A stretch of DNA of 64,000 bases from the human T2T-CHM13v2.0 reference genome, Homo sapiens. Made by a program: the position numbers and the translations under genes. The stretch is taken from NCBI GenBank assembly GCA_009914755.4, contig CP068257.2, positions 44,512,001 through 44,576,000 on the forward strand, read 5' to 3'. Each line of letters starts with the position of its first letter. Positions within the stretch are counted from its first letter, which is position 1. Below the pieces are notes generated by a model. It saw only the letters and a list, made by a program, of their open reading frames with translations, ran no database searches and was not told the origin of the DNA. Below are positions 21,750 through 23,454 of this stretch, piece after piece.

Positions 21750-22886
21750 CTGGGACACAGGCCCGGCCCCCACACCTCAGTCTCCCCGTTTGAAAGAAGG
21801 AAAAGGAGCTTGGAGGTGGCTGCACCCCGAGACACAAATGGGGGCTGAGGAGGCGGGCCAAGCCTTTGGGGGCTCTCCGACAAGCTGAGCTCCCACCGAA
21901 AGTGCCCGCACACAGCGGCCGCCCGGGAACCCTCACAGCAGCCACAGTCACTCCAGCCCAAGCACGGTCCCCACAAGGGGCTGCAGGTGGTGCCTCCAGG
22001 AGAGACTCACGGGCTCTGCTCCGACAGACAGATGCCAGAGACGTGGCCGGGGATCCAAGAAGGTGACCACAGGCGCAGGTCACAGAGGGGCCGGGACCCC
22101 CACCCCCGAGCAGGGGAGGGACAGATCACCAGCATGGGGGAGGGGCCTGAAGGGCCTAGAACCTTCCGGGTGGCAGGACTGCTGGGAGCAGGGGCTCAGC
22201 CCCAAATCTTGCCCTGTCCCAGGGCCTTGGTGCTGGCTGGAATCCCGGCATGACGAGGCCTCCCTGCACCCCTGCGGGTGACCCCTGTGGCCTGGTGCTG
22301 CCCTCTGGGAGGCCTTCCAGGTGGCCCTTAGGGCCTGCATTTGTTCCCGGAGGAGCCTGGACCTCAGGGCTGTGGAAGGCGAGAGGCCGGACCTGGGGGC
22401 CTGCTGCCCCCTCTGTGCCTACTTCGTTTTGGGTCCAGTGAGGATGGTGGCTGCAGGGTGGGGGCTCAGCAAGCTAACTCCAGTGGAGATGGAGAGGCGG
22501 CAGTGGGGACCATGCTGGGCCACCTCGTGTGACCTCACACAGCCCTTTCAGTCAGTGGCAGGAGCCCCATTTTCAGGGGGGAGCACCAAGGCCCTTTGAG
22601 GCCCAGAGATCTGCCCAACCCCCCACCGAAAGCACCCGAAAGGCCCCTGAAGCCACAGCCAAGCCTCAGCCCCCACAAGCACCAGTCGTGTTCCACCCAC
22701 CCCTGGGTCAGGCACTCCCCAGGGCCCTGAGCCACGGGATGTCCTTGGGGCCCACGGGCAGCGGCTCTGCCCATCCTGGGAAGACGACCCGGGACACCAA
22801 GCCCACCACCTCCTCCATGGCCTGGGCCTTAGCCACTCAAGCTGCCCCATCAGCCCTAGATGCTTGACCAGCTCCTCGGGCCTCAC

Positions 22887-22940
22887 CTCCTGGTTCTTCC
22901 CCTCCGAAAAGTTGGGGACGCATTCCACCAGCTGGGACAT
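22887..22940 (-). CDS. FTCD: FTCD first coding exon (MSQLVECVPNFSEGKNQE), ATG at 22938-22940
   Basis: ORF 22548..23168(-) residue 77 onward reads MSQLVECVPNFSEGKNQEV. Donor GAG|gtgagg. Total reconstructed CDS is 1623 nt, i.e. 541 aa. Confidence 0.85.
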
Positions 22941-23454
22941 GGCCAGCACCTTGATCCAGATGCTCCTCTCTGGGCAGATGGAAGGACAGGGCCAGTGCTC
23001 CGCAGCCGCCGCCAGGGCCTTTATACGCTCACCGGCAGCACCTCCCCACCGGCTTCTCATTAACCAGCAAGGCACAAGGAGCAGTGGGGCCAAGGTCCCT
23101 GTGCAGCCGCGGAGTGGGGTGCTGCAGAGCCACCCCGGGTGCTGTTGACCCAGAGGGGATGGCTCCACTCAGCCAGAGTGTGGGTTCCCGGAAAAGAAGC
23201 ACATGCCAGGGTGAAGGGGCATGTGCCGAGGACCCCCAGTAGCATCAGGCCAGCCTGGCTGGAATCCTGTCGTGACGAGGCCTCCCTGTGCCCCTGCGGG
23301 TGACCCTCGTGACCCTGTGCTGCCTTCTGGGAGGCCTTCCAGGCAGCCCGTGGGGCCTGCGTTTGTTCCTGGAGGAGCCTGGACCCCTGGGGCTGTGGAG
23401 GGCGAGAGGCCAGCATGAGGCCCTGGCTCGCAGCACCCAACTGAGGTCAGCTCA

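What the first reader, a model, noticed from the sequence alone, without database searches (positions are those of the whole stretch)
22236..23440. ~190-bp direct duplication bracketing FTCD exon 1 and its presumed promoter
Segment 22236-22430 (inside intron 1) and segment 23250-23440 (upstream of the start-codon exon) are ~88% identical direct repeats (ggaatcc..gtgacgaggcctccctg..ccctgcgggtgaccc..tgctgcc.tctgggaggccttccagg..gcctgc.tttgttcc.ggaggagcctggacc..gggctgtgga.ggcgagaggcc). The similar ORF pairs 22250-22441/23221-23418(+) and 22080-22340/23060-23440(-) show the same duplication. They flank ~1 kb containing the first coding exon and core promoter. That geometry can mediate recombinational loss or duplication of exon 1, or reflect a duplicated regulatory module (alternative promoter).
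Basis: seen in the sequence. Interest (0 to 1): 0.5.

Follow-up and report, generated by a model that had tools for sequence, protein, structure and literature searches.

The report
Old 171-bp local duplication flanking FTCD exon 1
A 171-base piece of DNA from upstream of the human FTCD gene was copied about 1 kb away into the gene's first intron in the common ancestor of monkeys and apes, most likely as a by-product of DNA-break repair; it is real, but it is an ordinary kind of evolutionary scar and shows no sign of a function.

Summary
The repeat is real. Window 22233-22403 (FTCD intron 1) and 23255-23425 (315-485 bp upstream of the ATG) are direct copies of 171 bp, 85% identical (146 of 172 columns, blastn E=2e-44). 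They are the only two copies in the 64 kb. They bracket the conserved core promoter and exon 1, but include neither.

Orthologous loci show both copies in chimpanzee, drill and squirrel monkey. Tarsier, slow loris, tree shrew and otter have only the upstream sequence. In tarsier and loris the intron site is a clean empty site inside a MIR element. In a tree of the units, monkey/ape copies A and B group together, apart from tarsier and loris, in 500 of 500 bootstraps. So the intron copy was made from the upstream sequence on the anthropoid stem.

Size, distance, an interrupted transposable element as acceptor and the lack of a poly(A) tail or target-site duplication match the "repair-mediated duplications" of Pace et al. 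2009.

I found no evidence of function:
- Divergence looks neutral.
- The longest exact match between the copies is 18 bp, which makes a poor recombination substrate.
- No promoter element was duplicated.

Verdict: an ordinary new member of a known kind, of low interest.

The parts
23255..23425 (-). Copy B, the donor (ancestral) unit, 171 bp, -315 to -485 from the FTCD ATG
   Evidence: Aligns as orthologous, non-inserted DNA in all 8 mammals compared. A single copy at this position in tarsier (about 70% identity) and weakly in slow loris and tree shrew. It carries the window's only perfect GGGTCAnnnGGGTCA motif, at 23301-23315.
22233..22403 (-). Copy A, the acceptor (derived) unit, 171 bp, inserted in FTCD intron 1
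   Evidence: 85% identical to copy B. Present in Homo, Pan, Mandrillus and Saimiri. Absent, with a contiguous empty site, in Carlito and Nycticebus, and not detected in Tupaia or Lontra.
22404..22436 (-). 5' half of the interrupted MIR element, immediately upstream of copy A in gene orientation
   Evidence: Aligns to tarsier ...GGAAACTGAGGCACAGAAGGGTTAG. That tarsier sequence matches a MIR consensus written from memory (z=14.8; nhmmer E=5e-8).
22189..22232 (-). 3' half of the interrupted MIR element, immediately downstream of copy A in gene orientation
   Evidence: CACCAAGGCCCTGGGACAGGGCAAGATTTGGGGCTGAGCCCCTG aligns to tarsier CACTAAAGTCCGCAGGACAGGATTCGGGGCTAAACTCCTG, which directly follows the 5' half in the empty site.
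22884..22940 (-). FTCD exon 1 coding part (MSQLVECVPNFSEGKNQE), bracketed by the repeat but not duplicated
   Evidence: tblastn 100% over residues 1-19. Conserved in 8 mammals.
23018..23064 (-). FTCD core promoter: TATA box (23018-23025) and an HNF1-half-site-like GTTAATGAGAAGC (23052-23064). It lies between the copies and is not duplicated
   Evidence: Both blocks are conserved from human to otter in the upstream alignment. Calling them TATA and HNF1-like is my own motif reading.
21765..22883 (-). FTCD intron 1, about 1.1 kb in anthropoids and about 0.5-0.9 kb in the four non-anthropoids
   Evidence: Exon 2 mapped in every locus. Intron alignment.
23467..23781 (.). 45-bp-period minisatellite about 40 bp distal to copy B. 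It is context (an unstable, break-prone neighbourhood), not part of the duplication
   Evidence: Tandem Repeats Finder and the repeat finder. Also present in Pan, Mandrillus and Saimiri.

Best explanation
Copy A is a roughly 45-65-million-year-old repair-mediated duplication. On my reading, a DNA double-strand break inside a MIR element in FTCD intron 1 was repaired in the anthropoid stem lineage by copying about 171 bp from a template 1 kb away on the same chromosome. The template was the sequence 315-485 bp upstream of the FTCD ATG, in the same orientation, and the copy was sealed into the break.

The mechanism I infer is synthesis-dependent strand annealing or microhomology-mediated template switching.

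Since then both copies have decayed independently and about neutrally to 85% identity. The pair brackets the promoter and exon 1 only because the donor and the break happened to lie on either side of them. It has no demonstrable present function.

Shown: the repeat itself, its polarity (B is the donor, A the copy), the clean insertion, the timing bracket and the absence of retroposition hallmarks.

Inferred: the break-repair mechanism and neutrality.
For: - **The repeat is real and has two copies.** 171 bp, 85% identical, E=2e-44, only two copies in the window.
- **Species distribution.** Both copies sit at orthologous positions in Pan, Mandrillus and Saimiri. Self-comparison of upstream region against intron 1 finds nothing in Carlito, Nycticebus, Tupaia or Lontra.
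- **Clean insertion.** The intron 1 alignment shows an insertion that coincides with the repeat unit. Its flanks are contiguous in tarsier and loris. There are no assembly gaps (Ns) at that site in the non-anthropoid loci.
- **Copy B is not an insertion.** It aligns as resident DNA in all 8 species.
- **Polarity from the tree.** The split {anthropoid A + anthropoid B | tarsier, loris} appears in 500 of 500 bootstraps. A and B are equally distant from tarsier (67.1% and 68.0% identity) and from loris (63.2% and 62.2%).
- **Independent decay.** Of the 16 differences between the reconstructed ancestral copies, 8 are derived in A and 6 in B. There is no concerted evolution: Saimiri A against Saimiri B is 77.5%, while Homo A against Saimiri B is 82.4%.
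- **Junctions.** No poly(A) tail and no target-site duplication. There is a 3-nt CAG overlap, 2-6 nt of target are missing, and the first about 15 nt match poorly (possible filler).
- **Acceptor is a MIR element**.
- **Fit to a described class.** Pace et al. 2009 (PMC2671141) report 824 human proximal repair-mediated duplications found as insertions interrupting transposable elements. The donor lies within 5 kb, with a peak near 1.2 kb. Mean length is 162 bp, none has a poly(A) tail, and 513 of 1,136 are shared by the primates they surveyed.
- **Near-neutral divergence.** Homo-Saimiri identity is 85.3% for A and 85.9% for B, against 75-84% in adjacent non-coding segments and about 78% locus-wide with gaps counted.
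Against: - The junctions are blurred by roughly 50 My of substitutions. Microhomology, deletion and filler cannot be assigned with certainty.
- Genome-wide copy number could not be checked because no human genome or Dfam library was available. The one metagenome scan returned nothing and is uninformative.
- The MIR consensus was written from memory.
- Both copies are slightly better conserved than their immediate flanks (85-86% against 75-83% for Homo-Saimiri). This could reflect mild constraint rather than better alignability.
- Only one tarsier, one strepsirrhine and four anthropoids were sampled.
- The locus is not in Table S1 of Pace et al. as held.
Confidence: 0.85

Rival explanations
1. 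Duplicated cis-regulatory module. Copy B would be a liver enhancer or upstream promoter element, for example a nuclear-receptor DR3 site (two GGGTCA half-sites 3 nt apart). Copy A would then give FTCD a second, intronic 'shadow' copy, or an alternative promoter.
For: - Copy B holds the window's only perfect GGGTCAnnnGGGTCA motif (23301-23315). It is kept in all four anthropoid B copies, whereas every A copy has lost one half-site.
- Both copies are a little more conserved than their immediate flanks.
- Pace et al. note that such duplications can copy transcription-factor binding sites.
Against: - The motif is not statistically unusual: 12 of 100 shuffles have at least one.
- A and B evolve at the same rate, close to or within the locus-wide non-coding range.
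- The conserved TATA and GTTAAT blocks are not in the unit.
- The unit is poorly conserved outside anthropoids: 67% to tarsier, and barely detectable in tree shrew and otter.
- None of the three predicted isoforms examined (human X3, chimpanzee X1, bonobo) has an alternative first exon.
- Copy A landed in a MIR relic.
Confidence: 0.08
2. Active recombination substrate. The two direct copies would mediate recurrent deletion or duplication of about 1 kb that removes or doubles the FTCD promoter and exon 1, producing null alleles for glutamate formiminotransferase deficiency.
For: - Direct orientation with the promoter and exon 1 in between.
- The region is minisatellite-rich.
- FTCD carries structural variants attributed to meiotic break hotspots (PMC7615360).
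Against: - The unit is only 171 bp at 85% identity, and the longest uninterrupted match is 18 bp. From established knowledge, homologous recombination in mammals needs hundreds of bp of near-perfect identity.
- The structure is intact with near-constant spacing in four anthropoid lineages.
- The 12 variants in the FTCD allelic spectrum of PMC5702579 are all point or small changes.
- The two structural variants listed in PMC7615360 are a 509-bp deletion and a 16.3-kb event elsewhere in the gene.
Confidence: 0.05
3. Two independent insertions of one interspersed repeat family (a transposable element), so that the similarity only reflects family membership.
For: - The slow loris orthologue of copy B resembles the MIR core (z=5.7), so part of the unit may descend from an ancient MIR.
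- The acceptor site is also a MIR.
Against: - Copy A shares the substitutions that copy B acquired after the tarsier split (500 of 500 bootstraps). A separate insertion would not.
- 85% identity is far above the 60-70% seen between old MIR copies.
- The human copies are not themselves recognisable as MIR (z=0.3 and 1.5).
- There are no other copies in 64 kb or in seven orthologous loci.
- There are no terminal inverted repeats, poly(A) tail or target-site duplication.
- From established knowledge, MIR activity ended long before anthropoids arose.
Confidence: 0.01
4. Remnant of a larger tandem duplication of about 1 kb (unit + promoter + exon 1 + part of the intron) whose second promoter and exon were later deleted.
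For: The copies are direct, and the 1022-bp spacing would equal the period of such a duplication.
Against: - In all four anthropoids the only similarity between the upstream region and intron 1 is the 171-bp unit.
- The sequences on both sides of copy A are contiguous MIR sequence in the tarsier empty site. The event therefore inserted just the unit.
Confidence: 0.02

Closest known systems
[quoted passage not shown]
   Same: - An insertion that interrupts a transposable element.
- A single donor on the same chromosome 1 kb away. Their distance peak is about 1.2 kb, and 66% of pairs lie within 3 kb.
- Length of 171 bp, against their mean of 162 bp and median of 147 bp.
- No poly(A) tail.
- Short microhomology and a small target deletion at the junctions.
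- An empty site in outgroup species.
- Donor-acceptor divergence that fits neutral decay.
- Acceptor in an intron, as for 295 of their 824 acceptors.
   Different: - It is not found in their Table S1 as held here. My guess is that the flanking MIR halves are too degraded in human to be annotated (z=2.1).
- It is older than the cases whose breakpoints they inspected, so the junction signatures are blurred.
- The donor is upstream promoter-flanking DNA, and the pair happens to bracket a promoter and first exon.
Microhomology-mediated template switching (FoSTeS/MMBIR) and short-range template switches in great apes (PMC7954356, seen in the list and not read)
   Same: A local templated copy inserted at a nearby site with little or no junction homology.
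   Different: From my own knowledge, short-range template switches are mostly tens of bp and often inverted. This one is 171 bp, direct and a simple insertion. The two mechanisms cannot be told apart here.
Low-copy repeats or segmental duplications that mediate non-allelic homologous recombination
   Same: Direct repeats flanking a functional segment (promoter and exon 1).
   Different: The unit is 171 bp at 85% identity with at most 18 bp of perfect match. By the usual definition (my own knowledge), segmental duplications are at least 1 kb at 90% identity or more, and recombination needs long perfect tracts.

Membership tests
Repair-mediated proximal duplication (Pace et al. 2009) | An insertion of at least 50 bp that interrupts an annotated transposable element (the acceptor lies inside a TE) | tested here: met
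   A 171-bp insert splits a MIR. The tarsier empty site matches a MIR consensus (z=14.8; nhmmer E=5e-8), and the human flanks align to its two halves. Caveat: the consensus was written from memory, and the human flanks alone are weak (z=2.1).
Repair-mediated proximal duplication (Pace et al. 2009) | The inserted sequence occurs at exactly one other place in the genome (the donor) | tested here: inconclusive
   Exactly two copies in the 64-kb window and two in each anthropoid locus. A genome-wide count was not possible. The metagenome scan gave 0 hits and is uninformative.
Repair-mediated proximal duplication (Pace et al. 2009) | Donor on the same chromosome, more than 50 bp and less than 5 kb from the acceptor | tested here: met
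   Start-to-start distance is 1022 bp, with an 851-bp gap. The distance is 994-1036 bp in the other anthropoids.
Repair-mediated proximal duplication (Pace et al. 2009) | No poly(A)/poly(T) tail or retroposition-type target-site duplication | tested here: met
   Junction sequences in four species show neither.
Repair-mediated proximal duplication (Pace et al. 2009) | Breakpoint signatures of imperfect break repair: microhomology of 2-9 nt, deletion of 1-15 nt, or filler DNA | tested here: inconclusive
   There is a 3-nt CAG overlap, 2-6 nt of target are missing relative to tarsier and loris, and the first about 15 nt of copy A match the donor poorly (6 of the 16 ancestral differences fall there). 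This is compatible with the signatures but blurred by age.
Repair-mediated proximal duplication (Pace et al. 2009) | Empty orthologous site in outgroup species, and a donor-acceptor divergence that fits the inferred age | tested here: met
   The site is empty in Carlito and Nycticebus, and no copy is found in Tupaia or Lontra. There are 16 differences in 166 sites between the reconstructed ancestors, then 8-12 changes per lineage.
Interspersed repeat (TE) family copies | Copies arise by independent insertions from a family source, so each relates to the family consensus rather than to its neighbour, and there are many genomic copies | tested here: not met
   Copy A nests with anthropoid copy B, with tarsier and loris B outside, in 500 of 500 bootstraps. 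There are no further copies in the window or in 7 loci. The human copies are not significantly MIR-like.
NAHR-competent low-copy repeat | Long, highly identical direct repeats (hundreds of bp of near-perfect identity) | tested here: not met
   171 bp at 85% identity. The longest exact matches are 18, 16, 16, 15 and 13 bp.
Duplicated or alternative promoter | The duplicate contains core promoter elements or a transcription start site, and a downstream alternative first exon exists | tested here: not met
   The unit spans -315 to -485 only, and the conserved TATA and GTTAAT blocks lie outside it. The three predicted isoforms I read share exon 1, and the one N-terminal extension is an in-frame read of the 5'UTR. 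Transcription start data were not available.

The most novel reading that the evidence does not exclude
The 171-bp unit is a functional, anthropoid-specific regulatory module. It would be partly MIR-derived and carry a DR3 nuclear-receptor site. Its break-repair copy in intron 1 would then have given FTCD a pair of elements flanking its promoter (a shadow enhancer or looping pair). Alternatively, or in addition, the pair would generate rare exon-1 deletion alleles that exon sequencing misses in formiminoglutamic aciduria.
Probability: 0.07. Interest if true: 0.35.

Novelty: new member of a known kind. Interest (0 to 1): 0.12.

Why it matters
It matters little beyond tidy annotation. It is a clean, datable example of a repair-mediated proximal duplication: donor, acceptor and empty site are all recovered, and the acceptor is a MIR element. 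The published catalogue seems to have missed it.

One practical point follows. Anyone designing primers, probes, guide RNAs or short-read variant calls around the FTCD promoter and exon 1 should know that 171 bp on each side are 85% alike.

It would matter more only if liver chromatin data showed both copies to be active, or if long-read cohorts showed deletions of about 1 kb between them.

Tried and rejected
- **Chance or low complexity.** Rejected (E=2e-44, and 0 of 100 shuffles matched).
- **Extension of the similarity beyond 171 bp.** None found in human or in three other anthropoids.
- **Larger tandem duplication.** Rejected by the clean empty site.
- **Independent transposable-element insertions.** Rejected by the tree.
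- **Gene conversion between two old MIR elements.** Rejected. Copy A is nested inside an intact MIR rather than replacing its homologous part, and the MIR core would be present twice.
- **Ongoing concerted evolution.** Not seen. Paralogues within a species are no closer than between species.
- **Retroposition.** No poly(A) tail or target-site duplication.
- **Known RNA family in 20000-26000.** None.
- **Metagenome scan for extra copies or human contigs.** 0 hits, uninformative.
- **MIR consensus against the human copies.** Not significant. nhmmer with that consensus found no hit at E<0.01 in the human window, so the probe is insensitive.
- **DR3 motif enrichment.** Not significant.
- **Failed locus look-ups.** Five of the 12 look-ups failed because only the longest isoform of a gene is indexed. 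Macaque and lemur loci were therefore not obtained.
- **Table S1 of Pace et al.** Searched for FTCD and for hg18-like coordinates, and not found. My hg18 coordinates are from memory, and the stored file may be truncated.
- **Literature on an FTCD exon-1 deletion.** Nothing found.

Full report
**1. The observation**

The window carries the human FTCD gene on the minus strand. A tblastn probe places the ATG at 22940, exon 1 coding sequence at 22940-22884, exon 2 at 21764-21561 and the stop near 3051.

Local alignment gives one direct-repeat pair, 22233-22403 and 23255-23425. Each copy is 171 bp, and 146 of 172 columns are identical (85%), with two single-base indels. blastn within the window gives E=2e-44 and no third copy; the next hit has E=0.027. 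A two-block pattern from the unit matches exactly twice, against zero matches in 100 shuffles.

Of the 24 substitutions between the copies, 19 are transitions, and 6 of those are in CpG context. That is the usual signature of neutral decay in mammalian DNA.

The ORF pairs it cites exist, but they are only mechanical ORFs that mirror the duplication.

**2. Anatomy**

In gene orientation the order is:
- a 45-bp-period minisatellite (23781-23467);
- copy B (23425-23255, which is -485 to -315 from the ATG);
- about 190 bp of poorly conserved DNA;
- the core promoter, with GTTAATGAGAAGC at 23064-23052 and the TATA box at 23025-23018, both conserved from human to otter;
- exon 1;
- 480 bp of intron;
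- copy A (22403-22233);
- the rest of intron 1.

The duplicated unit therefore contains neither the core promoter nor exon 1.

**3. Comparative evidence**

Using FTCD orthologues returned by the protein search, I fetched seven orthologous loci: Pan, Saimiri, Carlito, Tupaia, Lontra, Nycticebus and Mandrillus.

Both copies are present at the same positions in Pan, Mandrillus and Saimiri. Comparing each species' own upstream region with its own intron 1 finds the pair in the four anthropoids and nothing in tarsier, slow loris, tree shrew or otter. Tarsier has a single copy at the upstream position, about 70% identical to the human copies. Loris and tree shrew have weak matches there.

The intron 1 alignment shows a clean anthropoid insertion that coincides with the repeat unit. 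In tarsier and loris the flanking sequences are contiguous, and none of the non-anthropoid loci has assembly gaps in that region. The upstream alignment shows copy B as resident, orthologous DNA in all eight species. Intron 1 is about 1.06-1.12 kb in anthropoids and 0.5-0.9 kb in the others.

**4. Polarity and age**

In an alignment of the eight anthropoid units plus the tarsier and loris orthologues, A and B are equally distant from tarsier (67.1% and 68.0%) and from loris (63.2% and 62.2%). The split {all anthropoid A and B | tarsier, loris} occurs in 500 of 500 neighbour-joining bootstraps.

An independently inserted repeat copy would instead join the tree outside the primate B orthologues. 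Copy A therefore inherited the substitutions that copy B had acquired after the tarsier split, which means it was copied from B.

The parsimony ancestors of A and B at the platyrrhine-catarrhine node differ at 16 of 166 sites, with 8 derived in A and 6 in B. Each lineage then added 8-12 changes. I assume a platyrrhine-catarrhine split of about 43 My, a figure from my own knowledge. On that basis, and setting aside the poorly matching first 16 nt, the event falls at roughly 45-65 My, on the anthropoid stem.

Paralogues within a species are no more alike than paralogues between species, so there has been no later gene conversion.

**5. Junctions and target**

The tarsier empty site reads ...GGAAACTGAGGCACAGAAGGGTTAG^GCAAAC CACTAAAGTCCGCAGGACAGGATTCGGGGC.... 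This matches the core of a MIR SINE (z=14.8 against shuffles; nhmmer E=5e-8). The orthologous tree shrew intron gives E=1e-3. The MIR consensus was written from memory, so this is a lead confirmed only by those scores.

In anthropoids the 171-bp unit sits between ...GGCACAGAGGGGGCAG and CACCAAGGCCCTGGGACAGGGCAAGATTTGGGGC.... The junctions have these features:
- no poly(A) tail and no target-site duplication;
- a possible 3-nt CAG overlap;
- 2-6 nt of target missing;
- a first 15 nt or so that match the donor poorly, which may be filler.

The loris orthologue of the donor also looks MIR-like (z=5.7). The human copies do not (z=0.3 and 1.5).

**6. Mechanism**

These features are those of the repair-mediated duplications described by Pace et al. 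2009 (PMC2671141):
- They found 824 human cases, detected as insertions that split a transposable element.
- Each has a single donor within 5 kb, with a distance peak near 1.2 kb.
- Mean length is 162 bp, and none has a poly(A) tail.
- The breakpoints they inspected by hand (39 proximal cases) carry microhomology, small deletions or filler.
- Donor-acceptor divergence is roughly neutral.
- 513 of their 1,136 duplicons are shared by the primates they surveyed.

They attribute these events to synthesis-dependent strand annealing at a double-strand break. I adopt that mechanism as the most likely one. It is an inference, and microhomology-mediated template switching during replication would leave the same product.

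The FTCD case is not in their Table S1 as held. I suspect this is because the human MIR flanks are too decayed to be annotated (z=2.1).

**7. Function**

I found no evidence for one. Homo-Saimiri identity is 85.3% for A and 85.9% for B. That compares with 75-83% for adjacent intron and upstream DNA, 84% for the core promoter plus 5'UTR and 96.5% for exon 1. Locus-wide alignable identity, with gaps counted, is about 78% to Saimiri and 86.5% to Mandrillus. The copies are therefore at most marginally better conserved than their surroundings, and they are equal to each other.

Copy B carries the window's only perfect GGGTCAnnnGGGTCA. All four anthropoid B copies keep it, and all A copies have lost a half-site. 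However, 12 of 100 shuffles contain such a site, so this is only a hint.

Of the three predicted isoforms I read, none has an alternative first exon. The N-terminal extension of one database entry is an in-frame translation of the 5'UTR and TATA region. No Rfam family matches the region.

**8. Recombination risk**

The longest perfect match between the copies is 18 bp. The arrangement is intact, with near-constant spacing, in four lineages that separated tens of millions of years ago.

The FTCD deficiency allelic spectrum I could read contains only point and small changes (PMC5702579). The two FTCD structural variants listed by Hinch et al. (PMC7615360) are a 509-bp deletion and a 16.3-kb event elsewhere in the gene.

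Rare microhomology-mediated deletions cannot be excluded without population long-read data.

**9. Verdict**

The duplication is a real local event rather than a genome-wide repeat. The functional readings are not supported.

It is an ordinary, old, apparently neutral repair-mediated proximal duplication. That makes it a new member of a known kind.

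Noticed in passing
window 23467-23781: A 45-bp-period (also 92/95-bp) minisatellite of GTGAGAGTG...ACACGTGAG units lies only about 40 bp from copy B. It is also present in chimpanzee, drill and squirrel monkey. It may mark a break-prone neighbourhood relevant to the origin of the duplication.
   Followed up: partly
window 23018-23064 (minus strand): The FTCD core promoter blocks GTTAATGAGAAGC (HNF1-half-site-like) and TATAAAGG are conserved in all 8 mammals aligned. They are the only strongly conserved upstream non-coding blocks.
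   Followed up: partly
window 37053-40798: A very large, homogeneous tandem array with a 39-bp unit (higher-order 118 bp), about 96 copies at 93% identity.
   Followed up: no
window 6171-7363: A 50-bp-period array of about 24 copies at 88% identity, inside the FTCD gene body (intronic by position).
   Followed up: no
window 362-800: A telomere-like (TTAGGGTCAGGG)n / (GGGTCA)n array of about 440 bp, downstream of the FTCD 3' end.
   Followed up: no
window 54185-55047, 53139-53734, 62750-63996, 28426-28851, 27949-28199, 10770-11887: Further minisatellites and low-complexity arrays: 53-bp x16, 17/105-bp, 117-bp running to the window end, (GGGGGA)n, 45-bp x5.6, and a CT-rich kilobase. The whole window is unusually rich in tandem repeats.
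   Followed up: no
window 56109-56387 and 57487-57761: An inverted pair of 280 bp at 95% identity, 1.1 kb apart. It contains an Alu part plus non-Alu A-rich sequence. It is much more similar than the other Alu pairs in the window, so it may be a younger local inverted duplication.
   Followed up: partly
L002 (Saimiri) 4590-4640, copy B: The squirrel monkey donor copy has an extra GGGGTCAC-containing 13-nt insertion, giving three GGGTCA half-sites. The otter orthologue has a run of GGAGGGTCAC-like repeats at the same place, so this motif seems prone to local expansion.
   Followed up: no
protein P0002 (human 'isoform X3', eukprot) and window 22941-23060: The 40-residue N-terminal extension of this database protein is an in-frame translation that starts inside the GTTAATGAG promoter block and runs through the TATA box. 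It is almost certainly an annotation artefact.
   Followed up: yes
PMC7615360 supplementary file 3: FTCD is listed among genes with predicted loss-of-function structural variants near meiotic hotspots: chr21:46138315-46138824 (deletion, 509 bp) and chr21:46136354-46152668 (16.3 kb), both hg38. Neither matches the interval bracketed by the repeat.
   Followed up: partly
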